Positions 13,010 to 33,323 of a stretch of DNA of 35,502 nt are shown piece by piece; positions within the stretch are counted from its first letter, which is position 1, and every line of letters begins with the position of its first letter. Under the pieces are notes generated by a model. The model was not told the DNA's origin. It saw only the letters and a program-made list of their open reading frames with translations, and did no database searches. Origin of the DNA: a virus. The DNA is taken from positions 1 through 35,502 of the IMG/VR virus record IMGVR_UViG_3300011878_000001. The stretch is one strand, 5' to 3'. Made by a program: the position numbers and the translations under genes.

Positions 13010-13230
13010 TGGTTTTATATATCTCAACGCCTGAGTTACTGAAGCGTTATGGGGTAACGAAAGGCACTTTGATCAACTGGCGCAATAAAAAGGATTTTCC
13101 TGAACCAGTGATCAAAGCACATGGGCGCTCAAGCAGCCGCTATGGTATTAAAGCCGTGGATGCCTGGGAAAGAGACAACGGATTGCTTGAATCACTTGAA
13201 ATACAGCCTTTGATATCAAAGCGCTCGTAA
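13009..13230 (+). CDS. xis: Excisionase / AlpA-type HTH protein
   Basis: ATG 13009 (TGATG overlap, AAGGAGG SD). LLKRYGVTKGTLINWRNKKDFPEPV matches the AlpA/Xis HTH pattern. Adjacent to int. Confidence 0.65.
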   Translation: MVLYISTPELLKRYGVTKGTLINWRNKKDFPEPVIKAHGRSSSRYGIKAVDAWERDNGLLESLEIQPLISKRS

Positions 13231-14441: not shown

Positions 14442-14499
14442 TTAATTTTTTCCAGTCCAAATGCCTTATACTCTGTACATAATCAAACAGAGCAGAATT

Positions 14500-14520
14500 A
14501 TGTACACAGATGTGTACACA
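14500..14520 (+). repeat. Arm-type repeat pair (A/G)TGTACACA x2, int-proximal
   Basis: TGTACACA at 14501-14508 and 14513-14520 (12-bp period). A related TGTACAT lies at 14474-14480. Confidence 0.7.
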
Positions 14521-14762
14521 ATTTTTCTTGAAAGGTAAATGACTTTGTTGGACTTTAAAATTATTTGATAATCGTTAAAGAACGCGAAAGTTGAGTAATT
14601 CTATTGAATCTAAAGCTTTTCTATATGCTTTGTTGAACTTTGAAAAACTTTGGAGAATCTTGAATGCAAAAGCCGACTATAATTTTTGATATGGACGGCT
14701 AGTTTCATAAACCACTAATTTAAATAATATTTATTTTAAAAATTATTTAAATCATATTTTTA

Positions 14763-16160: not shown

Positions 16161-16214
16161 TAAAAAACCCTGATCTAATTAAAGGTCAGGGTTGAAGGTG
16201 GTTTGTTGGGTGTT
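16161..16214 (-). terminator. Box-terminator module copy 2 (between acyltransferase and holin)
   Basis: Minus-strand reading: TAA, CACCCAACAAACC (box 16214-16200), stem AACCCTGA/TCAGGGTT (16193-16166), T6, then ATG 16160 of a 15-codon mini-ORF. Confidence 0.75.
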
Positions 16215-20000: not shown

Positions 20001-21647
20001 TCAATTAAAGTCTAATGGGGCCTCAATCGAGCCTCCATCTTTTCTCCAATTAACGCCTTCACGAACTTCGTTTTGTCTGTGTATTTTGCCAATACGTTCT
20101 GGTGAATCTGTTACAGCGCCAGCCAATGAGTCCAGATCGTCATCTGGCTGCTCAGTGATTGCAGGGTTAAACATGCGCATATTTTTATATTGTCTTGAGC
20201 TATTCTCGCCTTCTTCTGGTGTATCAATCACTGAGGTATGCACCCATAACAGGCCAGACATTAAAGGTCCTTCCAGTGCCTCAAGAATGCGTCTATTTTT
20301 ATTGCCAACGCTGTGTTCTTCTTTTACACCGCAACGGATACGGCGTGCTTTTAACGCGCCTTTTAGGGCTGCCGGGGCAAAGTTACCAATGCCATTAGTC
20401 TCAATCGTTACGCTTGGCACGTTGAATTGCTCAATCAGATCGCAAAGCTGCCAGACCTGACCACCAACGATATTTCCTTGTGCATCATGGGTAACGACTT
20501 CACCTGTCAGTGCAACAGATCTATGCCAGTACTTCACACCAAAATCATCATGAAGTACTAATGCAGTTGAGGAAATATCAGATTTCAGCTTTCCAGATGA
20601 TGGATCCCATCGCATGGTGATGCCGACAATTTGACGATCACCCAGCATCATGATGTACTGACCGTTGGCGCGTCGAAGTACTGGCTCGCAGTTATAAACT
20701 TCCATCTTGTCCGGATCAAGTCGAACTTCGCCCACCGGCTTGGCATGCATCTGGTACTGTGAATCCCATTCGTTTAATGTCCGGCATTCTCTACGGCGCT
20801 CTTCCATAATTTGTGGTGTAAATCTTTCTGGCCATAGAGCTTCGCCATAAAGGTCAATCAGATAATGTTTTTCTTTAAATACTATTTTGAATGTATTACC
20901 TATTTTAAAAACCGCATAATCTTCATCACGTTTTAATAGTTTGGCTGAATGACTGATGCCACTAAAAATATAAACAGGGTCAAAATCACTGAGGCAATCA
21001 CTTACATTTTCAAAGCGTTTTTCTAATTCAAACATTTTAAGAATCATGCATTTCGCCCCTTTCTTTTTAACTTCTGTGTAAAGTGAATCGTGCGTATGTG
21101 GTGTGCCCACAAATAGTTTTTGTCCACCTGGTATAAGAATGTGGGTCTGCTCTGAAATTCGATAGCGTAGTTTTTCACGCGCTTCAGGTGTACCGATATT
21201 GGCTGGCATTTCGATATCATCATTTTGGATTTCATGAGCACGTGCACCAGTTACGTTGGATAGAATCCCACGCGCATGCAATGAGCCATGACGGACATCA
21301 TCCGACCCATTGACCCACCATTTTTGAAGTTCACCACGTGCCTTGTATACACCTATAATCTGGCAAAGTGGATGCTTTTCGATAACTTGCTGAGTACCAC
21401 GGCTACACTTTGCAGCATCCCCATCGGTTGCGCCCTGGTGCAAGATCATGTGCTGGCAGTCGCAAAACAGTTTCCAGGCATTGTAAATATCAAGCATGGT
21501 TGATTTGCCGTGACCACGCGGCATCATAAGCAGTCCTAAACTGCCGTAATCCTCCAGGAAGTCGCAAACATCCAGGTGAAAATCTGGTACCTCCCAATTC
21601 ATGGCCTGCGCATAAATCAGGAAGAAAACAGCAAAGCTAACCTTCAT
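20001..21647 (-). CDS. terL: Terminase large subunit, T7 gp19-like
   Basis: Walker A-like PRGHGKST. The N-terminus FAVFFLIYAQAMNWEVPDFHLDVCDFL aligns by eye with T7 gp19 [28 protein letters not shown]...FRGIGKS (from memory). 548 aa. Confidence 0.85.
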   Translation of the reverse strand: MKVSFAVFFLIYAQAMNWEVPDFHLDVCDFLEDYGSLGLLMMPRGHGKSTMLDIYNAWKLFCDCQHMILHQGATDGDAAKCSRGTQQVIEKHPLCQIIGVYKARGELQKWWVNGSDDVRHGSLHARGILSNVTGARAHEIQNDDIEMPANIGTPEAREKLRYRISEQTHILIPGGQKLFVGTPHTHDSLYTEVKKKGAKCMILKMFELEKRFENVSDCLSDFDPVYIFSGISHSAKLLKRDEDYAVFKIGNTFKIVFKEKHYLIDLYGEALWPERFTPQIMEERRRECRTLNEWDSQYQMHAKPVGEVRLDPDKMEVYNCEPVLRRANGQYIMMLGDRQIVGITMRWDPSSGKLKSDISSTALVLHDDFGVKYWHRSVALTGEVVTHDAQGNIVGGQVWQLCDLIEQFNVPSVTIETNGIGNFAPAALKGALKARRIRCGVKEEHSVGNKNRRILEALEGPLMSGLLWVHTSVIDTPEEGENSSRQYKNMRMFNPAITEQPDDDLDSLAGAVTDSPERIGKIHRQNEVREGVNWRKDGGSIEAPLDFN

Positions 21648-21650
21648 AAC

Positions 21651-21989
21651 TTAACTCGGACGCTGTTTTTTACGTTCGTTAAGTGCAGCCGTCACATCGG
21701 CCACTAATTTAGCCGCTTGTGCTTCTGGTGATACCTTCCGACCAGTCCCATCACCCGCTGTCTGCTCATCATCAAGCAATACGCGGTTTAATTTCTCCAT
21801 ACAGGTCAGGGCTTCTTTCGCACCTTTGTATAACCAGACCTTATCTCCACGGCCTTTCTTGTCGAAAACATCCTGACCATAAGCTTCGGTCATCAGATCC
21901 ACGGCATCCGATCCAGCCATTTCCATACAGAGTTTTAATTTCTCTATTGTTTCAGGTTTTAAAAAACGTAACTTCTTTTCATCTGACAT
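21651..21989 (-). CDS. terS: Terminase small subunit (by position, T7 gp18 equivalent)
   Basis: 112 aa, 3 nt upstream of terL. No motif recognised. Confidence 0.45.
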   Translation of the reverse strand: MSDEKKLRFLKPETIEKLKLCMEMAGSDAVDLMTEAYGQDVFDKKGRGDKVWLYKGAKEALTCMEKLNRVLLDDEQTAGDGTGRKVSPEAQAAKLVADVTAALNERKKQRPS

Positions 21990-22054: not shown

Positions 22055-24580
22055 TTACTCCACGATACGATCAAAATCAGGCATCTGAATATCACCGACA
22101 TCATCACCCCAGAAGCGCGTCCGGTCGTGCTGACGTTCGGCCTTACGCAATAATTTTTCACGGTATCCAGGTGCAATCATGTCCTGCATTTCATCAAATA
22201 CCATTCGATTAGTCGCGGCTTTGGTGTACCACAAGTTTTGCGCAGGGATCTTGTTCTTGAGTAAGCGGAATGCTTCATTAGATGCGTTGGTGTCCTTGTC
22301 ATCGTAGTACTGCGTCAAGTTCCCCACAGTCAAACCAAGCACAGCTTTAACATCTGAACCCAATGGACCAACCATAAAGTCCGAAGCACTACGTCCTGAA
22401 GTATCTGTACCCGCAACCAGAATGTCACCAAGAATGGATAGACCACCACCCTGAACAGCTGAACGTGTCCAGAAATTCATAGCCTTTTGCGGATCATCAC
22501 TATCCCACATGGTTGAAGGATCGTTACCATTGGCCAGCTCTTTCAACTGTACAGCTAATGCGCCAAGTACTGTGGTCATGGCAAATAATGAAACGCCATA
22601 AGCTGCTTTGCCTTTCACACCATCCTGTGCCATTGCACGTGAACCGTGGCGCATCAAGAATGCCGCGGGGAATGACTTAAACTGAAGCATAGATTTGATT
22701 ATTTCACCCATACCTGTGCCTTTCCGTTGCCCTGCACTCATCCATGTACGTTCGCGCAATCCAGCTTCAACCACAGCCATTCCCTGTTCATCCAGCAAGT
22801 GTGCCTGAAATTGTGTGGCCACTTCATCACGCACCTTTTGTGGGTCGCCAAACCTAGTTAAATCACTATCTGGAATTTCATAGATTGAACGTGCTGACAT
22901 TAGCTGGTTGCCTTTACGATCCACCACCGGATCAGCCAGACGCATGACTTCCCATGCTCGTTCGTTTAGTCCGGTTTTTTCCATTAGCTCGCGGTCTAAC
23001 GCGTCTAAATCATCCCAGCTTTTAGACCGACTTAGACGACCATACTTCTCCATAAGCATCTTGGTAAAGCCGACTTTTGAAGCTGCTGTGAGTGCATTTA
23101 GGCCAGATATACGCATAACCTGTGAAGCAATACCACTGGATACCCGAGCCAGTTTCTGTGATTTGCCATGCACTGAGGTCAATCCATCATCTGACCAACG
23201 AGCAATAGAGCCGAGCATTTCCTCTGTGGCCAGACCTAAGCTGTGCGCCAGCTGCCGATCTTCTTTATTTTTCGGATTGAGTTGTGAAATCAGCTCACCA
23301 AAAGTTTTACGGTAGGCAATACCATGGATCGATGCTGTCTTTGCAATCATGGCTTGATCGGTGACGGATGAAATTGTGGTGCCGCCCAGCATGGATGCTA
23401 CGTTCATTGATCGGTATGCTAAACCCAAATTGGCAAGCACTTCGGATTGCGGTGTGTTCTGTCCGGAGAATTCATCAAACATCGTTTGTGCACGTTTACG
23501 GCTCTTGCCTGTCGTGTTCTGATCCAGACCTTTTAGCCAGTCTTTTTGCTCGGCTGCATCCATCAGAATGCGCATGGCATTACGCGGATTACTTCCCAAA
23601 TTTTCTACCATAGCAATATCTTTAGATAATCCATTTACGTGCGCCTCGATCAGATCCACAAACGGCATACCACCGAACTCAGCCTGATATTCCATCCATG
23701 ACTCAGCATCTTTAAAATGTAGTACCCGGCTTTCAGAGTGACGACTGGTGACTTTTGAATTACCACCAAAGGACTGCCGGCCAATCTCTGTTTTATTGGC
23801 CCCGTTGCTGCTGAGCGTGTCAAACGAGTGCTCAAGCAGGTCGCGGATCTCCTGCTGTGAATAATACGTGCCATCCTCATGCACATATTTGGAAGTGTTG
23901 ATCAGGCTTTCCGCTTTCTGCACCCATGCCTGTTTCCCGGCCTTAACGATCTTTTCCAGGCTATGCGTCTGCGGTAAACCCCAATCATCCAGCTTGCCAA
24001 TATCACCACCGGCACGGTTAAAGCGTTCACGCATACCCTCAAAGACTTCACCCATTTTGTCGCTGATCTTCTTGGCCAGCGGATCGCCGGTACTGTCATT
24101 GAAGCGTTCACGGACAATTTTTTGCACCAGTTCTGCATCAGTAAATACACCTAAACTGCCTTTGATATTTGTGTAGAAGTCCACCAGCTCACCACGGTAA
24201 ACGGAGGCAATCGCACGTGCTTTGGAGTCTAGAGATTGAATGCCAGACATATCACCATGTGGGGCAACCATGCGGTCCACGACTTCGGATGCAGATAAGG
24301 TCGGATGATCAAGCTGTGCAAGGTTTTTGTTCTGAGTGAGAATGTCACGTGCGGCAATGGCATGCTTTCGTTTTAATTGCGCCTGAATATCCTGTGCCAC
24401 AAACTCACCGGCTTTCACCAGTTTTTCAGCATCGGATAAATTGCGCCAGTTCTGAATATCCTGTTTGGCCAAAGACTTCATTGCATCCTTGATCCGGTTT
24501 TCAATGTCGGTGGCTTCTTGCTGGTTTAAAGTTGCCTTGCCGAGTGCCTTTGCTACGGCGGCCTTACATTGGTCTTTCAT
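22055..24580 (-). CDS. Large alpha-helical virion/ejection protein (841 aa) with C-terminal hydrophobic segments
   Basis: It lies within the internal-virion-protein block. Hydrophobic stretches AAYGVSLFAMTTVLGALAV and GGGLSILGDILVAG near the C-terminus. No enzymatic motif recognised. Confidence 0.45.
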   Translation of the reverse strand: MKDQCKAAVAKALGKATLNQQEATDIENRIKDAMKSLAKQDIQNWRNLSDAEKLVKAGEFVAQDIQAQLKRKHAIAARDILTQNKNLAQLDHPTLSASEVVDRMVAPHGDMSGIQSLDSKARAIASVYRGELVDFYTNIKGSLGVFTDAELVQKIVRERFNDSTGDPLAKKISDKMGEVFEGMRERFNRAGGDIGKLDDWGLPQTHSLEKIVKAGKQAWVQKAESLINTSKYVHEDGTYYSQQEIRDLLEHSFDTLSSNGANKTEIGRQSFGGNSKVTSRHSESRVLHFKDAESWMEYQAEFGGMPFVDLIEAHVNGLSKDIAMVENLGSNPRNAMRILMDAAEQKDWLKGLDQNTTGKSRKRAQTMFDEFSGQNTPQSEVLANLGLAYRSMNVASMLGGTTISSVTDQAMIAKTASIHGIAYRKTFGELISQLNPKNKEDRQLAHSLGLATEEMLGSIARWSDDGLTSVHGKSQKLARVSSGIASQVMRISGLNALTAASKVGFTKMLMEKYGRLSRSKSWDDLDALDRELMEKTGLNERAWEVMRLADPVVDRKGNQLMSARSIYEIPDSDLTRFGDPQKVRDEVATQFQAHLLDEQGMAVVEAGLRERTWMSAGQRKGTGMGEIIKSMLQFKSFPAAFLMRHGSRAMAQDGVKGKAAYGVSLFAMTTVLGALAVQLKELANGNDPSTMWDSDDPQKAMNFWTRSAVQGGGLSILGDILVAGTDTSGRSASDFMVGPLGSDVKAVLGLTVGNLTQYYDDKDTNASNEAFRLLKNKIPAQNLWYTKAATNRMVFDEMQDMIAPGYREKLLRKAERQHDRTRFWGDDVGDIQMPDFDRIVE

Positions 24581-24650: not shown

Positions 24651-24920
24651 TCAATCTGACTCTATAGGTCTACTTGAAACTGATGTTTCATACTCTACCA
24701 GGTACTGTTGGCCAGTATCATAAAGCTTGGCAACATCTAATAAAAAATCATCAAGAGGTGAAACAAATTCCTCTATTTCCCCAAAGTCTTTAAATCTTTT
24801 AGCATTGTCAGGACGGGAATCATAAAGTGTTGTAATCATTGCATCACTATTATTTATACCAATCACAAAATCTTCTTTTTCAGGGTGAATTAAAACAAAC
24901 CCCAATAGTTTTTTAGCCAT
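24651..24920 (-). CDS. Small acidic protein (89 aa), an AT-rich moron inside the ejection-protein cluster
   Basis: 18 Asp/Glu versus 9 Lys/Arg by count. Own SD (AAGGA 7 nt upstream). 57-nt AT-rich upstream gap. Own terminator downstream. Confidence 0.6.
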   Translation of the reverse strand: MAKKLLGFVLIHPEKEDFVIGINNSDAMITTLYDSRPDNAKRFKDFGEIEEFVSPLDDFLLDVAKLYDTGQQYLVEYETSVSSRPIESD

Positions 24921-24977: not shown

Positions 24978-27812
24978 TTATTCCCCAAACTGTAAAGCAC
25001 AACTGATCGCTGTTTCAGTAGCGAAAATATCCTGCTGTGTCTGACGTGCTTCGGCTTCTAGTTCATCCAGTCGTTCACGTAAAGACATGGTGATTTCTTC
25101 CATTTCCCCATCTGGACGCATGCGACTGACTGAAATTTGCTGATCTGGATTCTGCATAATGATGTCTAAAGCGGCTGATTCTTCTGGTCCATCACCAAAT
25201 AATGAACCTTGTCGCGGATCGCCCATGGCCTCAATTTCATCAATCCTGGATTGAATATTCTCACCAATAGCTTTTGTACTACGCTTGTTTTGATCAAAGA
25301 CATTCAGGAAGTCACGTGCACCAGGTGAAAGTCCATCATCGATGAGCTGACCTTGATTTAGATAATCCGGTACGGTCTGGCCGTTGGCTTTTAGATCACT
25401 GAGCTTTTGCGCTGCTTGTGCCAAGTCTTTGGCCAAAGTATTTTTATGACGACCACCCTGTTTCACCAGACTGTCCAGTTGTGCCAGTTGCGGTGCAGCA
25501 CGGAGCAAGGCAGACAATACGGTTTTGCTGTCATCGTCCAGATTCTCAGCCATACGGCCAATCAGTGACGAATCATCATAGGCACGTTGCATGATCGCAG
25601 ATTCAATACGGCGTTTTCCTTCCTGGCTTAATCGTCCGTCACCGGTAATCACTGTGCCCTGTTCTGACTTTGGCAATGACCCTACAAAACCGCGTACAAA
25701 GTCCATAGAGCCATCAAGGTTGATCGTACCGTCATTATTGATCTTTAGAAGTGACGCATCCGGCAAACGATCCGAATCACTCACAGCGCGTTCAGTTGCG
25801 GAGTACTGCGCCACATCGGATTCATTGGCCAGCTTTGCAAACTGCGTACGGTCCGTATCGGTTAAACGTGTCCGGACTAAAACAGGATTATTAATGCCGG
25901 CAATATCGATGCCACGTTCAGCCGCGTACTGTTCCAGGAATGCCCGATATTCTTCAGCACGGCCCGACTCATAAGCCTTTGCAATGGCAAGTGTACGTCC
26001 GTTGCCTGATTCCACCACATTATCCATACCGATAATTGGTGCACCATCAGACAGCTTTGGAGATTCGCCAAGCAACTCAGGTCGCAAATCCTCAGCCATA
26101 CGCTCAATCTGTTGACGTGATGCCTCCCGGGTACGATCACGTGGTTGCAGTTCTGATGGGTAAAGTGGATTTACACCATAAGCCAGATCATTCGATGCAA
26201 TCAGTTCGTCCAGGCTCTTTACTTCATAGGCGAAATCATAGCTAGACCCATCCATGCCATAGGCAGTGCTGGTACCATTTTCACCATAACGTGCGCTAAG
26301 ACCGTTCCACTTGTTGCGCCATTTATCGACAGCTTGCCCAACGGTTAATCCAGACATGCCGTTATTGTTCACAATGGCATCGGCATTCTTGGAATCGTAC
26401 TTACGCACCACATCAATTAGCTTGGCATTCGGATCTGCTCTCAAGACTGCAGCTGCCCCACCTGGTCCAAGCAAGTGACCTAGATACTGCTCATGTGCCA
26501 CCGGCTCACGGCCAAGACTTTTACGCATAGAAGCATTGGCATTCTTGATGTGCTTCAAGCCCTGGCGAATCTGTTCATCAATATTGGTACGGTCACCACC
26601 GCCCTGACCCTTCCATGTCTTGTCGAGAATCTGGAACAGACCATGTGCAGATGAGGTCGGATTCTTCGCTGTGTGGTCGAATTTACCGCCTGTTTCAATG
26701 TGAGCAATAGTAAGTGCCACCGAAGGATTCACACCCTCCATCTGCGCTTTACGTGCGATAGATTTGGCATTGGTAGGCAAAGCCATCGTATCGTAATTAA
26801 CTGGCTTCTGCTTTTCCTCACCCTTAACCGGATGCACTACATTGACAGGTCGGCCCATGCGGATTGCTTCTACTGAAGCATCTAGGTTTTTATAATGATT
26901 ATTTTGCTGAACTGGATCGGCTGCTTTGACTGGTGCTAGTGTTTCTTCAAATTCCAATTCATTCAAAACCAGTGCTGCACGTTCCCGGTCAATTTCAATT
27001 TCCAGCTGCTCGGGTGATTTGTTCAGATAACGACTGGCCCCACGTGCTGCACCAAAAAACAGGGTATTCAGTAGCAGATCTGTGCCGATGGTTTCAGCAT
27101 TGACTTCGTATTTCTTCGCCTGTTTTTCGTAACCTTCTGACTCAAGTATCTCACCAGATACAGCTTGGCCACCCTGGGATAATGCAGTTGCCCCACCGAC
27201 AGACAATATGCCGTCTTTAATTACACCGCCTGTGCCTTTAAAACCATAGGACATAGGCAAAGCAGTAGCAGCTGCCGCCACTACACCATCCGTTAAAGCG
27301 ACTTTGGCCGCTGTTTCGCTATCCACACCATCGCGTGTCAGATCACCATAGACATAATGGGTTTCGGATGCACCGGTGACAGCTGCTGCACCGGCCACGC
27401 CACCAACGGCGCTACCAGTTACAGCACGTGTAGCATAGTCGCCCAGACTGAATGCAATATTGCCGATGGTACCGGTGTTTTCTTCATCCTTCAGATAGTC
27501 GATAGACTCATACACCAGATCATCACGCGCCTTTTGTTTCTGTTCCTTGTAGACAGAATATGGCTCGATAAATTCTTCTGTGCCTACGTCCTTAAATGAA
27601 TAGCCAACACGATCCACCACGGCGTCAATAGGTGCGGTAATCGTATCTGCCACTTTAGCAAAGCCCGCACCCATACCTCGCACCGGTGCAGCCAACTGGA
27701 ACAGCCCACTGGATTCTTCTTTGATCTGGGATTTATGCGCAATACCTTTAGCATTGACTGCATCGACCTGCTTCTGTTCTTCGTCTGTATATTCAGATAA
27801 CCAGTTACTCAT
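24978..27812 (-). CDS. Internal virion/ejection protein with SLT lytic transglycosylase and ParB/Srx-like domains (polyvalent protein, gp16 analogue)
   Basis: Residues ~120-260 form a Gly/Ala-rich hydrophobic region. SLT motifs IAHIETGG and GLFQI (residues ~345-470, nt 26403-26780). ParB-like motifs ELQPRDR (554-560) and GNGRTLA (603-609, GxxRxxA; nt 25986-26153). Helical C-terminus. Confidence 0.75.
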   Translation of the reverse strand: MSNWLSEYTDEEQKQVDAVNAKGIAHKSQIKEESSGLFQLAAPVRGMGAGFAKVADTITAPIDAVVDRVGYSFKDVGTEEFIEPYSVYKEQKQKARDDLVYESIDYLKDEENTGTIGNIAFSLGDYATRAVTGSAVGGVAGAAAVTGASETHYVYGDLTRDGVDSETAAKVALTDGVVAAAATALPMSYGFKGTGGVIKDGILSVGGATALSQGGQAVSGEILESEGYEKQAKKYEVNAETIGTDLLLNTLFFGAARGASRYLNKSPEQLEIEIDRERAALVLNELEFEETLAPVKAADPVQQNNHYKNLDASVEAIRMGRPVNVVHPVKGEEKQKPVNYDTMALPTNAKSIARKAQMEGVNPSVALTIAHIETGGKFDHTAKNPTSSAHGLFQILDKTWKGQGGGDRTNIDEQIRQGLKHIKNANASMRKSLGREPVAHEQYLGHLLGPGGAAAVLRADPNAKLIDVVRKYDSKNADAIVNNNGMSGLTVGQAVDKWRNKWNGLSARYGENGTSTAYGMDGSSYDFAYEVKSLDELIASNDLAYGVNPLYPSELQPRDRTREASRQQIERMAEDLRPELLGESPKLSDGAPIIGMDNVVESGNGRTLAIAKAYESGRAEEYRAFLEQYAAERGIDIAGINNPVLVRTRLTDTDRTQFAKLANESDVAQYSATERAVSDSDRLPDASLLKINNDGTINLDGSMDFVRGFVGSLPKSEQGTVITGDGRLSQEGKRRIESAIMQRAYDDSSLIGRMAENLDDDSKTVLSALLRAAPQLAQLDSLVKQGGRHKNTLAKDLAQAAQKLSDLKANGQTVPDYLNQGQLIDDGLSPGARDFLNVFDQNKRSTKAIGENIQSRIDEIEAMGDPRQGSLFGDGPEESAALDIIMQNPDQQISVSRMRPDGEMEEITMSLRERLDELEAEARQTQQDIFATETAISCALQFGE

Positions 27813-29848
27813 TACTTGGTCACTCCATCAGGCATGTTGAGATAGAACAGCGGTGTGCCACGTTCATTGATCAAGGCATAACGGATTACGCCATTTGGCC
27901 CTCTTGCAGCTTCACGGCGTAAGCGCAGATCGCGCACTTCGCTTTCCGACATCTTGTACTTTTGAGCAATCGCAGCAAAGCGTGTATCCAGAATGGCTTC
28001 AAAGCGTTCATCTTTCATGCCGTATGGTTTAGATACTTTCCATGTTTTCTGATTGCCGAACTTCACGCCCTGCTCATAAACACCACCAGTGGCCATGCTT
28101 AGGGCTGCACTGGTGATCTCTTTACTAATGTCGTCCTTATCCTTGTGCTGATAACCATCACGTTCGGTTAGGTGTGCATAAATTGACTTGAATGCAGCGT
28201 AGGTCATATTGGCTGTGCCACCTGTAACGGTATTGCCTACATACTTATTAAACTCGGCTTTAAGCAACTCATCCTTAGGCATCATCATCTGTTTGTTTTT
28301 CAATGCCTGATTACCGGAAATGATCGCCGTTGCGACATCCTCACCCTTTTCAGAACGGTAATTATTAGCACGTGCCACACCTGCCATCAGGTATGAATTA
28401 TCACCACCACCCAATTGTTTAATTGCAGCTGCCCAGATCCGGCTGCCATTCGGCACGCCTTTTGATTTAGTAATGAAAGTGCTAATGGTGTTTAATTTTT
28501 CATTCACACTTGAATTTTCAAAAGCCTGTTTAACCTCTGTTAGATCTTCAGATGCAATCGGCTTAATAGCTAAATTAGGATCTTTCAAGGCAAACTGACT
28601 GACGGCGTTTTCAATCGCTTTATCAGCAAATGAGCCTGGATCTGTTTTTAATTCCATGCCTGTGAGCTGGTGTGTCTGCAATCCTGCTTCACGCACAGCC
28701 TGATTCGGGTTTTCTTTCAATGTCTGCTTTTTCTCATTGAAGATAGATTCATACACACCTAAGATCTTTTCTTCATTCACAGCATCAGTGGTAGTGCTGT
28801 TCTTAGCACGCGCCTTCTGCTCATTAATTCGCTTTTCCTGTTCTGCAGTAGATAATCGGCTGAACATCTGAAAGTTGTTAGACTGTGATTTATAGAAATT
28901 ATATTCAGCTTCGTGCTCAGTACCCTGTACTGCAGATCCCATCGTTTGAATGTAATCATCATCTAAAGCACGGCCTGTCAGCACCTGAGATTTAAACTCG
29001 TTCAGGGCTTTACCCGCCAGCTGCACACGCTTATTTTCTTCGACCTCAACCTGTTTATTGATTGCATCGATCCGGCTCAGTGCCTGCGCTTTTTTCTGCT
29101 GCAGTGTTGGACCATCGGTATAACCAAAACCGCCGTTATCCATTTCAGTGACTAGCTGCTGCAGGCTAGCTGTATCCTTGTTTTCGATTGCTGCAGTAAT
29201 ACGGCCATCAATATCTTGCAAATCTCGGGAACTTTCGTATTTGTTTAGCATTTCCTGTTTTTGTGCTTCAGGAAGATTCAGGCTTTGAATATTTGATTCG
29301 ATATATTCACGACCTGCCTTACGATCCATACGTGTACCAATATCCATATAACGTTCAGCAAGTACTTCGCCTTTGCGGTTATCAGCACTTAACTGTAACG
29401 GCAGAAATGAAGTGGAGTTCTTGGCCACATGATGCGACCAGTAGTTTTCCATCTCATGACGTGCATGCATCGGCATGTCATTTTCAAGTTCTTTATAGCG
29501 CTGCTGCGACCAGGTGCTTAAAGTCTTGTTTGCATCCTCAGCCTTCATTGCGCCGTTGGCCACATCGTTTTTAAGCAATGTAACCTGTTCAGACAACTCA
29601 GAAGTCAACACGTCATCCAGCTTAACTTTTGCTTCTTTCTCAGCCATCTGATTGCTGTACAGCTCGGCATTCTTGGCCGAGATTTCAGCCTGTTCCTGCT
29701 CTTTGTTTTTTTGCTGAGCCATACCAGCAAAAGTCTGACCTAAATTGCCCACCGCCTGCGCCAATTGACCTGTATTGCGCTGTGGCATCTGGATACGTTC
29801 AACCTGTGGCATTGCATTACCAAAGTTGCCCATCGGGATTCTAGCCAT
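27812..29848 (-). CDS. Internal virion protein (gp15-position, about 678 aa)
   Basis: ATG 29848 in a TAATG overlap with the upstream stop (the track starts at GTG 29857). Helical, Q/E/K-rich. Call is positional only. Confidence 0.5.
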   Translation of the reverse strand: MARIPMGNFGNAMPQVERIQMPQRNTGQLAQAVGNLGQTFAGMAQQKNKEQEQAEISAKNAELYSNQMAEKEAKVKLDDVLTSELSEQVTLLKNDVANGAMKAEDANKTLSTWSQQRYKELENDMPMHARHEMENYWSHHVAKNSTSFLPLQLSADNRKGEVLAERYMDIGTRMDRKAGREYIESNIQSLNLPEAQKQEMLNKYESSRDLQDIDGRITAAIENKDTASLQQLVTEMDNGGFGYTDGPTLQQKKAQALSRIDAINKQVEVEENKRVQLAGKALNEFKSQVLTGRALDDDYIQTMGSAVQGTEHEAEYNFYKSQSNNFQMFSRLSTAEQEKRINEQKARAKNSTTTDAVNEEKILGVYESIFNEKKQTLKENPNQAVREAGLQTHQLTGMELKTDPGSFADKAIENAVSQFALKDPNLAIKPIASEDLTEVKQAFENSSVNEKLNTISTFITKSKGVPNGSRIWAAAIKQLGGGDNSYLMAGVARANNYRSEKGEDVATAIISGNQALKNKQMMMPKDELLKAEFNKYVGNTVTGGTANMTYAAFKSIYAHLTERDGYQHKDKDDISKEITSAALSMATGGVYEQGVKFGNQKTWKVSKPYGMKDERFEAILDTRFAAIAQKYKMSESEVRDLRLRREAARGPNGVIRYALINERGTPLFYLNMPDGVTK

Positions 29849-30273
29849 TATTTCCACCCCTTCGCAGTATTCAAACCTCCGCTGACCGCATTTAAGCCAC
29901 CAGCAACAAGCGCCGTATTGGCATTTTTACCATATACGCTGGCTTCACCCTTTAAGCGCTGTGAACTGTTATAACCAGTAATCGATGCCATATTCGCGTC
30001 ATAGTTAGCATCCAGTTCAATCTGATCATTGATTACAACGGCGGTACCCTCATGCACATCCAGGCCATTTTCTGCAGCTGCTGCACGTGCACGGCTCTGT
30101 GCCTTATCCTTTTCCTTGCGGATGCGCTCGGCTTCTAAACGACCACGTGCCAACTCTGCTTCCGCATCAGCATTCGCCTGCTTCTGCATATACTTGTTAT
30201 TTTGATGATCTGTATAACCTGCATATAGGGTTGATCCTACTGTAGCGACAACGGCTACTGCTGCCCAAGACAT
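29848..30273 (-). CDS. Small internal virion protein (gp14-position, 141 aa, N-terminal hydrophobic helix)
   Basis: MSWAAVAVVATVGSTLYAGY, then a coiled coil. Translationally coupled on both sides. Confidence 0.45.
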   Translation of the reverse strand: MSWAAVAVVATVGSTLYAGYTDHQNNKYMQKQANADAEAELARGRLEAERIRKEKDKAQSRARAAAAENGLDVHEGTAVVINDQIELDANYDANMASITGYNSSQRLKGEASVYGKNANTALVAGGLNAVSGGLNTAKGWK

Positions 30274-30758
30274 TATTCAATCTCCTTTACTTTGCCCGGT
30301 AGGGATGCAAGGAATTGATCTATTTCCTCATCAGGCACAATCACCTGCTGTTCGATCTTTTCCAGGTCGGTTTCTTCTGTGGGGTGTACGGTGATCCATG
30401 AACTGTCCTCATGAAAATAACCAATGCGTTTGGTACCTGGCATGGATTTCAGTACACATGGTGCAGTCATCAATTGAATGCCGTCCTCTGTGGCCACAGT
30501 TAGCGAACCTTTGAGCAGAATATTCATATGCTCGGTACGATGCATCTTGCTCACGACCAGTGTTCCAGCTGCTGCATCCATCTGACGCATATATACACCT
30601 GGTGCAAAGTGATGCTGCACTGGCACATCGATCAAATCCGGACTTTGTGAAAGCTGATCTTGTACACCACGGACTACATCGATATATGTCCGGCTCTGTA
30701 CATCCCCGAGGATTCGCGCCAGTAGTTCGGTATTGTCTGCAGGAATAACTTCATTCAT
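30273..30758 (-). CDS. Cupin-like (double-stranded beta-helix) protein, tentative
   Basis: 161 aa. His-rich beta pattern VQHHFAPGVYMRQM...SKMHRTEHMNILLKGSLTV...PGTKRIGYFHEDSSWITVH. Coupled to its neighbours (2-nt gap upstream, and its stop shares 1 nt with the next start). Confidence 0.35.
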   Translation of the reverse strand: MNEVIPADNTELLARILGDVQSRTYIDVVRGVQDQLSQSPDLIDVPVQHHFAPGVYMRQMDAAAGTLVVSKMHRTEHMNILLKGSLTVATEDGIQLMTAPCVLKSMPGTKRIGYFHEDSSWITVHPTEETDLEKIEQQVIVPDEEIDQFLASLPGKVKEIE

Positions 30759-30760
30759 GT

Positions 30761-31210
30761 TTAAAGCTCCATGTCCAGTAAGGTGCCATGCTCTTTAAAT
30801 CCAAAATGGTTATAGAGTCGGATGCATCCCTGAGTATTAATTCCAGTGGTGGTACCACACTGAACGCGACCTGCATTCATGTGTTTGGCCCATGTAATAA
30901 ACGTGTCAATCAGGTACAAGGCAGCACGTGTAGACCGATATTCGGGCTTGACGTAGAACACTTGTTCAAAGGCAATGACCTGATTGTTGAACCAGTCTTT
31001 AGTAGTCAGGCAAACGATACCGCCTGCAATTTCATGATCCTGAACAGCCACAAATACCGTACCTGCACCCTGAATCACTTGGGACAGGTTTTCAGTCAGT
31101 GCCTGTTCATCCAGTTCACGGTTGGCATAGTTCGGTGCTTCCTGGATAAATTGCCGGGCTATCTCCAACAAATCCGGCAGATCATCTAGTGTGGCTGGGC
31201 GCACAATCAT
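30761..31210 (-). CDS. GNAT-family N-acetyltransferase
   Basis: ATG 31210 (MIVRPATLDDLPDLLEI...), 1 nt after the tail tubular B stop. Acetyl-CoA motif-A-like YVKPEYRSTRAALYLID. C-terminal YNHFGFKE. The track start at 31222 is the alternative. Confidence 0.65.
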   Translation of the reverse strand: MIVRPATLDDLPDLLEIARQFIQEAPNYANRELDEQALTENLSQVIQGAGTVFVAVQDHEIAGGIVCLTTKDWFNNQVIAFEQVFYVKPEYRSTRAALYLIDTFITWAKHMNAGRVQCGTTTGINTQGCIRLYNHFGFKEHGTLLDMEL

Positions 31211-31211
31211 G

Positions 31212-33323
31212 TTATTTCTCATTAATTGACAACTGCATGGTGATAGCTTGCAGGTGAAATGGCAGAGGTTTGTTGTGTGTAATAATTAAAGGCACTTTGT
31301 GCAGGTCTTCCCAATGCCCGCCTTCAATCAGGTGATAGCCGGTGTATGGTTTTTTGTAGTCCAGTGGATTGTCATCAAAAGAGAGTGTTTCAATCAGCTC
31401 GCCGTTAATTGACGCCCCTAGCGTTTTATTAAAAAAGAATGCTGTCCGGTCTACCTTTGCTTTATGCAGCATGCTCGACAATGGCGCTTGATTCAGTTCC
31501 GGCGGGAACAGTTCAGCCACACATTCAAAGGTCTGGCCAAAAGAAAGTGTTTTGCCCACCAGATCTGCATCAACCTGCAGGTTACTTCCTGCATCTTCAC
31601 AAGCAATCTCGGTCACGGTGTCATTTTCAGCGTAATAGCATGCAATGTTATTTAAATGATTGAACTGTGCTTTATTCACTGTGTTTGCAGTCAGATTGAT
31701 ATTTAGCTGGGCATCGGTGTAAGCATTGAAAGAAAGTTCTTCCAGATAGGTACTGCCCTTACGTTCAACCAACATGAATGCCTGATCAGATCCTAGCGCT
31801 GTTGGTAATGAACAGATACTTTTGACTGATCCACCAAAGTCATGCTGTGCCCATGCAAGCACTTCCTGATCACGGTTAAAGGTGATTGACGCCACCTTGC
31901 CATCACCCAGCACACACCACACGATTGATTCAGGCTCTTGCTGATAGGTAATTTCATTAATACCTTGATGCTCTTCACCAATATGAGAAGCCAGTGAGCT
32001 AATCTCTGGTGATACCAGACCATCCACTTCATAACGATACGTTAAAGCACGCATACGCTCACCACCACGTTGTACAAATAGCAGCTCATTCCCCACACGC
32101 TCTGGACGTGTTACCGCATAGGCCCCATATGCTGAATGTTCAATAATATTTACAGTGGTTGGTGTCAGGCCGCCATCTGAATCGACCATGAATTCACCGC
32201 CTGAAGTTAGACACACTACGCCACGCTGTGCTTCAAGAAATAAAATTGAATTGGATAAACCTGATGCCGAAACGATACTGAATGCATCACTATCTTCTGT
32301 GGTTTCAAGAAAATTACCGTTTGCTCCAACGGCACTAAACCAGATTTTGTTAGGTGCTTTTTTCGTGTTGGCCAGAACTAAACGCTGTTTAAAATAGGTG
32401 CAGCAACGTGGATAACCATCTATAGCATTGAATGCCGGTGGCAATATCCCCCATGAGCGTTCAATCGCCTTGATATCTGCATCCAGTTTCTTAACTACCT
32501 CTCCCTCTACGCTATTTTCGTTGATAAACCGGGTAATTCTGATAAGCCCGCCATTTACCTCGATATAACTACCGACATCATCTGCAGAAAAAACATCGCT
32601 ACCAGAGGACGCCAATAGATGCCAGTAGGTAGGCTCTGTTCTTGGATTCTTGCCTGTACCAGCCAAAATAGCCTTGTAGTATTCAGTGACGGTTTTTTGC
32701 CCCCAGCCATTCGGAACAGTGTAGGTAACCCTGACTTCATCATCCACAGCATATGACGCCACATTACTCCATGGAGAAGTAGCGTCGACATTGAACGTTA
32801 CCCGCACACCGAGTTCTTTTGAGCTTGGCTTGCCCTTGCGGAATGGGTATCTGGCATTCTCAGAGTTAACAGGTTGATGATCAAAATTAAAAACTGAAAA
32901 TAACCAGTTCGCAAATTCTTCATCAGAACGTAAGCGCTGCACTGGATGAGCACTATGCGTAATGAACATTTCAAAACGGTACTGTACATACTGAATATCT
33001 GGTAGCTGTGAGTCGGCATAAGGTGTATCAAGCGTTGCTACAACTTCCCGGGTACGTGGGCAGTAAACCATTACGCTGAGATGCTTGAAGATCAGCATGA
33101 ATACGCTACTGGAATTCACAATGAAGGGAATTAGCCGGATAGCACCCGCCATCAAACCACGGTTAAACGTACCAGGACGTTTACGCACCCCACCTTCAAC
33201 CAGCGGAAAAACATTCTGCAATCGTTTTGCGCCGTTGGAGTACTGCTGAATATCAGTCCGGGTATACAGTGCAGTTGATAATTCACCTGCACTGAAATTG
33301 TTTTTCATCACAACAGTTTTCAT
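31212..33323 (-). CDS. Tail tubular protein B (nozzle), T7 gp12-like
   Basis: 703 aa. The N-terminus NNFSAGELSTALYTRTDIQQYSNGAKRLQNVFPLVEGGVRKRPG parallels T7 gp12 KNLKGGISQQPDILRYPDQG...GLQKRPP (from memory). ATGA overlap with the tubular A gene. Confidence 0.7.
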   Translation of the reverse strand: MKTVVMKNNFSAGELSTALYTRTDIQQYSNGAKRLQNVFPLVEGGVRKRPGTFNRGLMAGAIRLIPFIVNSSSVFMLIFKHLSVMVYCPRTREVVATLDTPYADSQLPDIQYVQYRFEMFITHSAHPVQRLRSDEEFANWLFSVFNFDHQPVNSENARYPFRKGKPSSKELGVRVTFNVDATSPWSNVASYAVDDEVRVTYTVPNGWGQKTVTEYYKAILAGTGKNPRTEPTYWHLLASSGSDVFSADDVGSYIEVNGGLIRITRFINENSVEGEVVKKLDADIKAIERSWGILPPAFNAIDGYPRCCTYFKQRLVLANTKKAPNKIWFSAVGANGNFLETTEDSDAFSIVSASGLSNSILFLEAQRGVVCLTSGGEFMVDSDGGLTPTTVNIIEHSAYGAYAVTRPERVGNELLFVQRGGERMRALTYRYEVDGLVSPEISSLASHIGEEHQGINEITYQQEPESIVWCVLGDGKVASITFNRDQEVLAWAQHDFGGSVKSICSLPTALGSDQAFMLVERKGSTYLEELSFNAYTDAQLNINLTANTVNKAQFNHLNNIACYYAENDTVTEIACEDAGSNLQVDADLVGKTLSFGQTFECVAELFPPELNQAPLSSMLHKAKVDRTAFFFNKTLGASINGELIETLSFDDNPLDYKKPYTGYHLIEGGHWEDLHKVPLIITHNKPLPFHLQAITMQLSINEK

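What the first reader, a model, noticed from the sequence alone, without database searches (positions are those of the whole stretch)
24978..27812. Ejection protein combining a membrane-active region, an SLT lytic transglycosylase and a ParB/Srx-like domain (polyvalent-protein architecture)
The 944-aa ORF occupies the T7 gp16 position. It carries a clear SLT signature: catalytic Glu context IAHIETGG plus GLFQI, residues ~345-470.

About 80 residues further on it carries what looks like a ParB/sulfiredoxin-fold N-terminal domain. ELQPRDR (554-560, nt 26133-26153) resembles the QPR-type box of DdrB-type ParB domains. ESGNGRTLAIAKAY (601-614) contains the GxxRxxA arginine box of ParB-family NTP-binding or nuclease domains. 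A further ~300-aa helical region follows.

T7-type gp16 proteins are ejected into the host ahead of the DNA. A ParB-like module here would therefore be delivered into the cell at the moment of DNA entry. Fusions of ParB domains with SLT and other effector domains are a hallmark of the polyvalent proteins described for phages and conjugative elements (Iyer et al. 2017, J Bacteriol). Those are proposed to counter host defence or to protect and organise incoming DNA. The role of the ParB module in a podovirus ejectosome is, to my knowledge, untested.
Basis: partly seen in the sequence, partly recalled or inferred. Interest (0 to 1): 0.7.

Follow-up and report, generated by a model that had tools for sequence, protein, structure and literature searches.

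The report
Phage ejection protein carrying DdrB-ParB cargo
This gene of a temperate Acinetobacter phage encodes an internal virion protein that carries a cell-wall-cutting enzyme and a DdrB-type ParB-like module; this fusion was already described in Acinetobacter prophages in 2017, and what the ParB-like module does is still untested.

Summary
It contains an SLT-type lytic transglycosylase and a DdrB-like ParB domain (Pfam PF18763, E=1.4e-42), and every quoted motif sits at the quoted residue.

The interpretation as a phage-type polyvalent protein is supported, but it is not new. Iyer et al. 2017 explicitly describe Acinetobacter prophage proteins that fuse a DdrB-like ParB domain to a lysozyme in late-gene context. 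They infer that the protein is injected. More than 120 database clusters, 81-98% identical where compared over the full length, already exist. Those that carry an organism name are from Acinetobacter.

Refinements from this work:
- The scaffold is an epsilon15 gp16 homologue, not a T7 gp16 homologue.
- SLT and the DdrB module are nested between a conserved N-module and a conserved roughly 65-aa C-terminal element of that scaffold.
- The conserved DdrB unit is about 360 aa. It matches P1 DdrB residues 37-424 at 36% identity and occurs in about 5,500 protein clusters.
- The phage has no other Dar component, so the module must act without DarB.
- The ParB domain is the most conserved segment of the protein.
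- ParB/Srx fold membership is consistent with my tests but not statistically proven by them.

The biochemical function remains unknown. Interest is low to moderate.

The parts
24978..27812 (-). The whole ORF: 944 aa plus stop codon. It is an epsilon15-gp16-type internal virion (ejection) protein with nested cargo domains.
   Evidence: ORF listing and translation. Full-length match to PHROG 11561. More than 120 clusters, 81-98% identical where compared over the full length; named sources are Acinetobacter.
26823..27749 (-). N-terminal scaffold module, residues about 22-330, shared with epsilon15 gp16 and gp16-position proteins of Uetakevirus phages.
   Evidence: BLASTP to epsilon15 gp16: residues 22-267, 28% identity, E=9e-13; also residues 279-325, E=0.005. 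tblastn hits to Uetakevirus coliphages over residues 35-330. phrog_1145 and phrog_14422.
27240..27434 (-). Gly/Ala-rich, moderately hydrophobic segments (residues 127-149 and 167-191).
   Evidence: Kyte-Doolittle 19-residue window maxima of about 1.3. 54% of residues 100-265 are G/A/S/T/V. Membrane activity is inferred only.
26367..26807 (-). Lytic transglycosylase (SLT/GH23-like) domain, residues 336-482. The putative catalytic Glu373 is at nt 26694-26696.
   Evidence: Pfam SLT 21.7 bits against a cut-off of 21.3. PDB phiKZ gp144 (3bkh/9xps) E=4e-7, with E373 aligned to gp144 E115. phrog_4067 transglycosylase, E=1.4e-23.
25866..26252 (-). DdrB-like ParB domain, residues 521-649. It contains box I E554-x-QPR-x-R-x-R562, G590-A-P592, D597, box II V600-ESGN-x-R606, Y614 and Y622.
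   Evidence: Pfam PF18763, E=1.4e-42. These residues are 86-100% conserved in 145 representatives that are at most 50% identical to one another. AlphaFold2 pLDDT 91.6. The top PDB fold hits are ParB N-domains, but E is at best 0.086.
25173..25865 (-). Helical extension of the DdrB module, residues 650-880. Together with the ParB domain it forms the conserved unit of about 360 aa, which is homologous to P1 DdrB residues 37-424.
   Evidence: BLASTP to P1 DdrB, 36% identity, E=1e-57. The module ends at query position about 360-367 in 104 of 150 representatives. Conserved at 95% or more: R655, N663, S671, E674, D679, G726, R735, Y745, E756, D759, G864-x-P-x-Q868. The helices are modelled with high confidence.
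24984..25172 (-). C-terminal scaffold element, residues 881-943: a beta-hairpin plus a long helix, motif NPDxxIxVxR..DG..EEITM...LDE...SCALQFG. It is conserved in gp16-position proteins that lack the DdrB module.
   Evidence: Local alignment against a shuffle null: Acinetobacter phage 4316 z=17.8, Uetakevirus PAS61 z=7.1. For epsilon15 gp16 the similarity is visible by eye but z is only 1.5. Relatives with extra cargo, P0130 and P0132, keep the element.
27812..29857 (-). Upstream neighbour, an epsilon15 gp15-like internal virion protein of 681 aa. Its stop codon overlaps the ATG of the ORF.
   Evidence: phrog_992. Piluca annotation as epsilon15 gp15-like. TAATG overlap. Syntenic in the 14 related Acinetobacter genome loci, in Piluca and in vB_EcoM_APEC.
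22055..24580 (-). Downstream neighbour, an epsilon15 gp17-like 'pilot'/virion structural protein of 841 aa. It is the last gene of the ejection cassette.
   Evidence: phrog_684, E=5e-287. Piluca annotation. 25% identity to epsilon15 gp17 and syntenic in all related loci.
29848..30273 (-). gp14-like small internal virion protein of 141 aa. It is the first gene of the ejection cassette.
   Evidence: phrog_418 'internal virion protein', E=2e-26. Same position as epsilon15 gp14.

Best explanation
The ORF encodes an internal virion (ejection) protein of a temperate, epsilon15-like podovirus of Acinetobacter. The window appears to be the complete phage genome, circularly permuted.

The scaffold is the epsilon15 gp16 family. 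It consists of an N-terminal module (residues about 22-330, with Gly/Ala-rich semi-hydrophobic segments) and a C-terminal element of about 65 aa. Two cargo modules are nested between these two ends. The first is a phiKZ-gp144-like lytic transglycosylase. The second is a DdrB module of about 360 aa: a ParB/Srx-like domain plus a helical domain, homologous to the N-terminal part of P1 DdrB. This makes the protein a phage-type polyvalent protein in the sense of Iyer et al. 2017.

Inferred mechanism:
1. The protein is packaged in the capsid core with the gp14-, gp15- and gp17-like proteins, and is translationally coupled to the gp15-like gene.
2. On infection it is ejected through the tail.
3. The SLT domain cuts peptidoglycan locally while the trans-envelope conduit forms.
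4. The DdrB module enters the cell with, or just ahead of, the DNA. There its conserved ParB-like pocket (QPR, GNxR, AN...TExA..D) binds or hydrolyses a nucleotide, or acts on nucleic acid, and helps the incoming genome survive early host defence. This follows the precedent of P1 DdrB, a component of the Dar anti-restriction system.

Shown here: domain identities, homologies, conservation, synteny, and the absence of the other Dar proteins. Inferred: packaging, ejection, the compartment reached, ligand and target.
For: Identity and architecture:
- Pfam ddrB-ParB E=1.4e-42 and SLT.
- phiKZ gp144 match with the catalytic Glu aligned.
- P1 DdrB residues 37-424, 36% identity, E=1e-57.
- N-module homologous to epsilon15 gp16, E=9e-13.
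- The C-terminal element is conserved in gp16-position proteins that lack the DdrB module.
- The cargo at this position is graded: none in epsilon15 and PAS61, lysozyme only in Acinetobacter phage 4316, and SLT plus DdrB in the window, Piluca and vB_EcoM_APEC. Other relatives add GNAT, or LPD37 plus ART.
- The gene order matches epsilon15 gp11-gp17.

The DdrB module is functional rather than decaying:
- All family-invariant polar residues are retained.
- The ParB domain is the most conserved segment among 117 Acinetobacter homologues, at 97.6% mean identity against 77-84% for the N-module and SLT.
- The module occurs in about 5,500 clusters at 50% identity, inside proteins of up to 5,217 aa.

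Virion delivery by precedent:
- P1 DdrB is a head protein by mass spectrometry (PMC9024508).
- Iyer et al. infer injection for the Acinetobacter lysozyme-DdrB fusions.

ParB relationship:
- Six of the nine PDB fold hits are ParB-family N-domains, and the top four are all ParB.
- The best hhalign local alignments pair QPR with QPR, GNxR with GERR, and PVLVR..AN..TExA with PAIVR..ENxQRE..ExA.
Against: - There is no direct evidence that this protein is in virions or is ejected. No proteomics was found in the papers on the two published cultured relatives, Piluca and vB_EcoM_APEC; no paper was found for TPWB-05.
- ParB/Srx superfamily membership is not statistically supported by my own tests. Foldseek gives E of 0.086 or worse and TM 0.35-0.45. 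hhalign probability is below 1%. The profile finds no PDB sequence.
- The DdrB module is acidic (net charge -19 over residues 515-885, pI 4.6) and is acidic in 98% of representatives. This is atypical for a non-specific DNA binder.
- In P1 the only role tabulated for DdrB is 'aids DarB addition to capsid', and ddrB is non-essential. This phage has no DarB, DarA, Hdf, DdrA or Ulx, so the P1 genetics cannot simply be transferred.
- The N-terminal hydrophobic segments are too weak to call transmembrane.
Confidence: 0.6

Rival explanations
1. The DdrB module is a structural or assembly element, for example a core-stack spacer or a packaging adaptor. It has no catalytic or anti-defence role after ejection.
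For: The role tabulated for P1 DdrB is 'aids DarB addition to capsid' (PMC9024508). The module is largely helical. It has no significant enzyme match in the PDB. It is acidic, like many internal capsid proteins.
Against: gp16-position proteins in epsilon15, PAS61 and Acinetobacter phage 4316 lack the module but keep both scaffold ends. The core can therefore be built without it. There is no DarB to load. About 40 residues, mostly polar or glycine, are conserved at 95% or more across 145 representatives. This includes the ParB-type QPR and GNxR boxes and looks like an active or ligand site. The same module is found in thousands of unrelated polyvalent proteins with enzymatic partners.
Confidence: 0.15
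2. The DdrB module is an ejected, NTP-regulated DNase or nickase. It attacks host or competing DNA, or nicks phage DNA to prime replication or integration. It is not an anti-restriction factor.
For: Iyer et al. list these options, citing ParB-like nucleases such as Osa, GmrS and Bce_0392. The conserved acidic residues D597, E674, D679, E756 and D759 could bind metal.
Against: [quoted passage not shown] A non-specific DNase packed next to the phage genome would be hazardous. The module's strong net negative charge argues against non-specific DNA binding.
Confidence: 0.15
3. The protein is a tail-associated or periplasm-acting wall hydrolase only. The DdrB module never reaches the cytoplasm; it stays in the periplasm or in the particle.
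For: Database annotations call the relatives 'tail protein' or 'lytic transglycosylase'. SLT acts in the periplasm. There is no evidence about compartment.
Against: [quoted passage not shown] NTP ligands for a ParB-like pocket are cytoplasmic. The gene sits in the gp14-gp17 internal-protein cassette, not among the tail tube or fibre genes.
Confidence: 0.1

Closest known systems
Acinetobacter prophage lysozyme + DdrB-like ParB polyvalent proteins (Iyer, Burroughs, Anand, de Souza, Aravind 2017, J Bacteriol; example WP_005204948)
   Same: Same host genus, same domain pair (peptidoglycan hydrolase plus DdrB-like ParB) and same late-gene/virion context. The paper draws the same inference of injection with the DNA. 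The window protein's nearest relatives whose source names an organism are Acinetobacter prophage proteins.
   Different: I could not retrieve WP_005204948 to confirm that it is the same orthologous family; the nearest accession I saw is WP_005251567, 82% identical. The section of the paper read here does not mention the epsilon15-gp16 scaffold, the nesting between conserved N- and C-terminal elements, or the module extent of about 360 aa.
Phage P1 DdrB (Dar anti-restriction system)
   Same: Residues 522-894 align with DdrB residues 37-424 at 36% identity, E=1e-57. Both carry Pfam PF18763. DdrB is an internal head protein.
   Different: P1 DdrB is a stand-alone 995-aa protein of a myovirus. Its C-terminal ~570 aa are absent here; Iyer et al. 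place a zincin-like metallopeptidase (MPTase) there. P1 DdrB works alongside Hdf, DarA, DdrA, Ulx and DarB, none of which is encoded in the window.
Epsilon15 gp16 and the gp16-position proteins of Uetakevirus and related temperate podoviruses
   Same: Homologous N-terminal module (E=9e-13) and C-terminal element. Same place in the gp13(GNAT)-gp14-gp15-gp16-gp17 cassette.
   Different: Epsilon15 gp16 (634 aa) and the PAS61 protein (600 aa) have no Pfam domain at all. In epsilon15 the SLT-like region is annotated in gp15 rather than gp16.
T7 gp16 (ejectosome inner-membrane/cytoplasmic component with an N-terminal lytic transglycosylase)
   Same: A large internal virion protein of a podovirus that carries an SLT-type domain and is encoded in the ejection-protein cassette. 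The presumed function in wall breaching is analogous.
   Different: I found no sequence relationship: none of the 13 PHROG families matched is annotated as a T7-type internal virion protein. T7 gp16 was not compared directly. Here SLT is internal rather than N-terminal, and the gene is third of four rather than last. T7 gp16 has no DdrB/ParB-like module (own knowledge).
Canonical ParB/Noc/PadC CTP-binding N-domains (ParB/Srx superfamily)
   Same: Same order of motifs (QPR box, GxxR box, beta-strand, then acidic box). ParB N-domains are the top PDB fold hits.
   Different: The similarity is not statistically significant in my tests. The domain has a single Arg in 'GNGR' instead of 'GERR', an extra helix bearing the invariant Y622, no HTH/centromere-binding domain that I could identify, no ParA partner, and an acidic overall charge.

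Membership tests
DdrB-like ParB domain family (Pfam PF18763; Iyer et al. 2017) | Matches the family HMM above the curated threshold | tested here: met
   145.1 bits against a cut-off of 27.6, E=1.4e-42, covering profile positions 2-120 of 121.
DdrB-like ParB domain family (Pfam PF18763; Iyer et al. 2017) | Highly conserved active-site Arg, Asp/Asn near the end of strand 2, and an extra helix bearing a conserved Tyr | tested here: met
   R606 is 100% conserved, D597 98%, N604 99% and Y622 100% in 145 representatives, and all are present in the window protein. Y622 lies in the AlphaFold2 helix 620-633, between the box II helix and the PVLVR strand. The assignment of D597/N604 to 'strand 2' is approximate.
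DdrB-like ParB domain family (Pfam PF18763; Iyer et al. 2017) | Phage or prophage late-gene context next to virion structural genes | tested here: met
   Flanked by gp15-like and gp17-like internal virion genes, in a module that runs capsid, nozzle, ejection cassette, terminase. Synteny is kept in 14 Acinetobacter loci.
ParB/sulfiredoxin (ParB/Srx) fold superfamily | Structural similarity to solved ParB/Srx N-domains | tested here: inconclusive
   Domain model pLDDT 91.6. Six of nine Foldseek PDB hits are ParB family (5k5d, 6sdk, 6ryk), but E=0.086-4.2, probability at most 0.87 and TM 0.35-0.45. For the whole module, Noc is the top hit at E=0.1.
ParB/sulfiredoxin (ParB/Srx) fold superfamily | Detectable sequence-profile relationship to canonical ParB N-domains | tested here: inconclusive
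   hhalign against a profile of 9 phage ParB N-domains gives probability 0.1-0.2%, E=0.36-0.52. The local alignments nevertheless pair box I, box II and box III in the expected register. Pfam ParBc is not hit at E of 1 or below. The alignments are shallow (Neff about 3.3).
ParB/sulfiredoxin (ParB/Srx) fold superfamily | NTP (CTP/ATP) binding or hydrolysis, or nuclease activity | not testable with these tools
   This needs a purified domain. No biochemical report on this domain turned up: only four papers use any DdrB-ParB term.
Phage-type polyvalent proteins (Iyer et al. 2017) | Two or more distinct effector-type domains in one polypeptide of a phage or conjugative element, drawn from the shared polyvalent domain pool | tested here: met
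   SLT plus DdrB-ParB. Both are listed as phage-type polyvalent domains. Close relatives add GNAT, LPD37, ART-PolyVal, Zeta toxin, LPD1 or LPD5.
Phage-type polyvalent proteins (Iyer et al. 2017) | Delivered into the recipient cell together with the DNA | not testable with these tools
   Inferred from gene context and from P1 DdrB being a head protein.
P1 Dar anti-restriction system | Presence of the partner proteins Hdf, DarA, DdrA, Ulx and DarB | tested here: not met
   tblastn of all five against the window (only the C-terminal 1,844 aa of DarB were available) gave nothing better than E=0.25.
P1 Dar anti-restriction system | Full-length DdrB with the C-terminal metallopeptidase region | tested here: not met
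   Only DdrB residues 37-424 are matched, and the window protein ends about 50 residues after the match.
Epsilon15 gp16 family of internal virion proteins | Homologous N-terminal module and the same position in the gp13-gp17 cassette | tested here: met
   E=9e-13 over residues 22-267. The gene order is parallel. The Piluca orthologue is annotated as epsilon15 gp16-like.
Epsilon15 gp16 family of internal virion proteins | Conserved C-terminal element | tested here: met
   z=17.8 (phage 4316) and z=7.1 (PAS61) against a shuffle null. For epsilon15 itself z is only 1.5, although the motif is visible by eye.
T7 gp16-type ejection protein | Sequence homology to T7 gp16, with N-terminal SLT and last position in the gp14-15-16 cassette | tested here: not met
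   None of the 13 PHROG families matched is annotated as a T7-type internal virion protein; T7 gp16 was not compared directly. SLT is internal (residues 336-482). A further large gene (22055-24580) closes the cassette.
SLT / GH23 lytic transglycosylase | Family HMM match with the catalytic Glu in the E-S/T motif, followed by a GLxQ motif | tested here: met
   Pfam 21.7 against 21.3 bits, which is marginal. phiKZ gp144 E=4e-7, with E373 aligned to E115. GLFQI at residues 391-395.

The most novel reading that the evidence does not exclude
The DdrB module of about 360 aa is an autonomous, virion-delivered enzyme. Its ParB-like pocket binds or destroys a nucleotide or nucleotide-derived signal, or clamps the entering DNA end in an NTP-dependent way, to defeat host immunity at the moment of DNA entry. 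It needs no DarB or DarA.

Epsilon15-type gp16 proteins would then be general 'cargo carriers', into which effectors are nested between two scaffold ends that are needed for packaging and ejection. This 35-kb phage and its cultured relatives Piluca and TPWB-05 would be the minimal genetic system in which to assign a function to a domain family found in about 5,500 protein clusters.
Probability: 0.3. Interest if true: 0.55.

Novelty: already known. Interest (0 to 1): 0.3.

Why it matters
The DdrB-like ParB module is one of the hub domains of phage polyvalent proteins. In this survey it occurs in about 5,500 clusters at 50% identity, yet no biochemical activity has been reported for it, and P1 genetics links it only to a helper role for DarB.

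A small temperate podovirus carries the module on an ejection protein, without any other Dar component. Natural relatives differ only in having or lacking the module. This offers a clean test bed for asking what the domain does when it enters the cell with the DNA.

That value is experimental convenience rather than discovery. [quoted passage not shown] The protein family is abundant, and one database entry is already named as a ddrB-like ParB protein.

Tried and rejected
- Megablast of the gene against 50,697 phage records found no nucleotide-level relative. Protein-level search was needed.
- T7-like identity was rejected. The apparent 'T7-sized' coliphage hits are Uetakevirus (epsilon15-like) phages.
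- Single-sequence and profile searches of PDB sequences found nothing for the DdrB module; only design proteins appeared, at E above 0.1.
- Foldseek of the whole 430-residue model against the PDB gave no hit at E of 0.001 or below. I therefore spent the second structure job on the ParB domain alone. That sharpened the list to ParB family members but still without significance.
- hhalign against a ParB N-domain profile that I built from 9 phage records was not significant.
- I looked for Hdf, DarA, DdrA, Ulx and DarB in the window to see whether this is a Dar system. They are absent.
- I considered whether the 89-aa ORF downstream could be DdrA-like. It shows no similarity and has no family hits.
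- I tried to read Piya et al. 2017 (PMC6011833) and Guichard et al. 2013 (PMID 24286036) for DdrB phenotypes and epsilon15 gp16 virion data. Neither is held, so those points rest on secondary citations and on the Piluca annotation note.
- The epsilon15 assignments in the ejection-protein review (gp11/gp12/gp13 of 229/499/708 aa) do not fit the NC_004775 annotation and were not used.
- I could not verify that WP_005204948 belongs to this exact family, because there is no look-up by accession.

Full report
**Observation.** The window holds a 944-codon ORF at 24978..27812. Its ATG overlaps the stop codon of the upstream gene (TAATG). All four quoted motifs sit exactly where stated:
- IAHIETGG at residues 369-376
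- GLFQI at residues 391-395
- ELQPRDR at residues 554-560 (nt 26133-26153)
- ESGNGRTLAIAKAY at residues 601-614

**Domain calls.** Pfam gives ddrB-ParB (PF18763) at E=1.4e-42, 145 bits against a cut-off of 27.6, over residues 521-649. It gives SLT (PF01464) just above threshold, 21.7 against 21.3 bits, over residues 352-427. The SLT call is reinforced by a match of residues 336-482 to the phiKZ gp144 lytic transglycosylase (PDB 3bkh/9xps, E=4e-7). In that alignment E373 pairs with gp144 E115, which I know as the catalytic residue (own knowledge). The 'membrane-active' label rests only on two Gly/Ala-rich segments of moderate hydrophobicity, with a Kyte-Doolittle mean of about 1.3.

**What the element is.** The window looks like a complete, circularly permuted phage genome of about 35.5 kb. 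The portal gene (992-2623) continues the structural module that starts with the capsid gene at the other end of the window (34388-35296). The window also encodes a CI-like repressor, an integrase, a RecT/exonuclease pair and an endolysin.

The structural genes run on the minus strand in this order:
- capsid
- N4-gp49-like protein
- tail protein (phrog_394)
- nozzle
- GNAT
- a 161-aa ORF
- gp14-like
- gp15-like
- this ORF
- an 89-aa ORF
- gp17-like 'pilot'
- terminase
- tail fibre

This parallels epsilon15 gp11-gp17 and the annotation of Alcaligenes phage Piluca, whose orthologue is labelled 'epsilon15 gp16-like'. Full-length relatives (55-65% identity by tblastn) occur in Acinetobacter phage TPWB-05, Piluca, Acinetobacter phage MD-2021a and E. 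coli phage vB_EcoM_APEC.

In the large protein collection, the 120 best clusters are 81-98% identical where compared over the full length. Many come from Acinetobacter lwoffii-group genomes and are named 'lytic transglycosylase domain-containing protein'. One is named 'ParB ddrB-like ParB superfamily domain'. A scan of one genome per species returned 14 loci, all in Acinetobacter. All keep the gp15-like / this gene / gp17-like synteny. The host is therefore Acinetobacter, and the phage is epsilon15-like rather than T7-like.

**Anatomy of the protein.**
1. Residues about 22-330 are homologous to the N-terminus of epsilon15 gp16 (28% identity, E=9e-13; a second block at residues 279-325, E=0.005). 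They are also homologous to the gp16-position proteins of Uetakevirus coliphages.
2. Residues 336-482 are the transglycosylase.
3. Residues 522-894 align with P1 DdrB residues 37-424 (36% identity, E=1e-57). The homology therefore extends about 250 residues beyond the 120-aa Pfam domain.
4. An exhaustive search of 1.84 billion cluster representatives with residues 515-944 found 5,506 clusters at E of 0.001 or below, and 2,600 at E of 1e-30 or below. The matching proteins are 191-5,217 aa long. In most of them the match ends at query position about 360-367. The evolutionary unit is therefore a module of about 360 aa, spanning residues about 522-880.
5. Across 145 representatives that are mutually 50% identical or less, about 40 positions are conserved at 95% or more, and all are present here. 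They include Q556-P-R558, R560, R562, G590-A-P592, D597, V600-E-S-G-N604, R606, Y614, Y622, P643-x-L-V-R647, R655, N663, S671, E674, D679, G726, R735, Y745, E756, D759 and G864-x-P-x-Q868.
6. Residues 881-943 are not part of the DdrB module. They form a C-terminal element that is also present in gp16-position proteins without any DdrB module: Acinetobacter phage 4316 (z=17.8), Uetakevirus PAS61 (z=7.1) and, visibly but weakly, epsilon15 gp16. AlphaFold2 models the element as a beta-hairpin plus a long helix.

The SLT and DdrB modules are therefore nested inside an epsilon15-gp16 scaffold, and both ends of that scaffold are kept. Pfam scans of positional homologues give a graded series:
- no domain in epsilon15 gp16 and PAS61
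- lysozyme only in phage 4316
- SLT plus DdrB in the window, Piluca and vB_EcoM_APEC

Metagenomic relatives add a GNAT, or LPD37 plus ART-PolyVal, while retaining both scaffold ends.

**Is it ParB/Srx?** Membership of the DdrB-like ParB family is beyond doubt. Membership of the wider ParB/Srx fold was tested three ways.
- A profile of the module finds no PDB sequence.
- AlphaFold2 models are confident: residues 515-944 have pLDDT 89.7 and residues 515-668 have pLDDT 91.6. Foldseek of the isolated domain returns only nine PDB hits. Six are ParB-family N-domains (pNOB8 ParB-N, B. subtilis ParB-CDP, PadC) and the top four are all ParB. However, E is 0.086-4.2 and TM is 0.35-0.45. For the whole module the two best hits are Noc, also not significant. 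Against predicted viral structures the significant hits are all DdrB-like or polyvalent proteins, followed by weak 'ParB protein' hits.
- hhalign against a profile of nine genuine phage ParB N-domains is not significant (probability below 1%). Its best local alignments nevertheless pair QPR with QPR, GNxR with GERR, and PVLVR..AN..TExA with PAIVR..ENxQRE..ExA.

The superfamily assignment made by Iyer et al. and reflected in the Pfam family name is thus consistent with my data but not independently proven by them.

**Functional constraints.**
- Among 117 full-length Acinetobacter homologues the ParB domain is the most conserved segment. Its mean identity is 97.6% and that of the helical extension is 94.6%, against 77-84% for the N-module and SLT.
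- The module is acidic in the window protein (net charge -19 over residues 515-885, pI 4.6) and acidic in 98% of representatives. That does not favour a non-specific DNA-binding role.
- None of the other P1 Dar proteins (Hdf, DarA, DdrA, Ulx, DarB) has a detectable homologue in the window. The metallopeptidase-bearing C-terminal half of P1 DdrB is also missing.
- Whatever the module does here, it does without DarB. The role tabulated for DdrB in P1, 'aids DarB addition to capsid', cannot be its function in this phage.

**Most likely mechanism (inferred).** The protein is packaged with the gp14-, gp15- and gp17-like proteins and ejected at infection. The SLT opens the peptidoglycan. The DdrB module is delivered with the DNA and uses its conserved ParB-like pocket on a nucleotide or nucleic-acid substrate, to the benefit of the incoming genome.

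The precedents are these. P1 DdrB is a head protein by mass spectrometry. [quoted passage not shown] Iyer et al. argue that NTP sensing or degradation is the likeliest activity of these domains.

The rivals are a purely structural or adaptor role, an ejected DNase, or a protein that never reaches the cytoplasm. They are less well supported, for the reasons given under each rival.

[quoted passage not shown] The architecture, the host genus and the inference are therefore all published.

What I add is modest:
- the identity of the scaffold (epsilon15 gp16)
- the nested arrangement between two conserved ends
- the true extent and abundance of the DdrB module
- its acidity
- its independence from the rest of the Dar system
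- its strong conservation relative to the rest of the protein

The literature search found only four papers that use any DdrB-ParB term, and no experimental work on the domain turned up.

**Verdict.** The finding is already known as a kind, and the protein is an ordinary member of an abundant family. Its value is as a convenient experimental handle on an uncharacterised but very widespread domain. Interest 0.3.

Noticed in passing
window 24651-24920 (- strand): An 89-aa ORF sits between the polyvalent gene and the gp17-like pilot gene. Its GC content is 34%, against about 48% for its neighbours. It has no Pfam or PHROG hit and no homologue in Piluca, vB_EcoM_APEC or any of the 14 related Acinetobacter loci. 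In those relatives the same intergenic slot varies from about 4 nt to about 1 kb. This looks like a moron insertion hot-spot inside the ejection cassette.
   Followed up: partly
window 30761-31222 (- strand): A GNAT acetyltransferase is encoded inside the virion structural cassette, directly after the nozzle gene. It corresponds to epsilon15 gp13, which is annotated 'internal virion protein, GNAT'. It may be a second enzyme delivered with the DNA. A close relative of the polyvalent protein (P0130) carries a GNAT fused in cis.
   Followed up: partly
window 30273-30758 (- strand): A 161-aa ORF matches phrog_24280 'tail fiber adhesin' / phrog_12032 'short tail fiber'. It lies between the GNAT and the gp14-like gene. 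It is present in only 5 of the 14 Acinetobacter loci and has no tblastn match in the Piluca or epsilon15 regions compared.
   Followed up: partly
window 16213-17295 (- strand): A 360-aa O-acetyltransferase (phrog_3333) lies between the tail-fibre gene and the endolysin gene. It is a candidate lysogenic-conversion (surface polysaccharide acetylation) moron.
   Followed up: no
window 1-35502 (ends): The window appears to be a complete, circularly permuted phage genome. The portal gene (992-2623) continues the structural operon that begins with the capsid gene at 34388-35296. The size matches Piluca (35,451 bp) and vB_EcoM_APEC (35,832 bp). The terminase genes (20001-21989) lie between the pilot gene and the tail fibre, far from the portal gene.
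   Followed up: partly
P0116, P0009 and P0120 (proteins of 1057-1063 aa; Acinetobacter sp. USHLN143, and A. lwoffii in the same cluster): Variants of the same protein carry an extra segment of about 100 aa with no Pfam match between the N-module and the SLT domain. In P0116, the one compared, the DdrB module is about 99% identical to the window's while the N-module is only 72% identical. This is mosaic exchange at the module boundaries.
   Followed up: partly
L004 (epsilon15) 12141-14669 compared with window 27812-29857: In epsilon15 the SLT-like region is annotated in gp15 (HHpred note), whereas in this phage it is in the gp16 homologue. The wall-hydrolase domain appears to have moved between neighbouring ejection proteins. 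Pfam did not detect SLT in epsilon15 gp15 at E of 0.01 or below.
   Followed up: no
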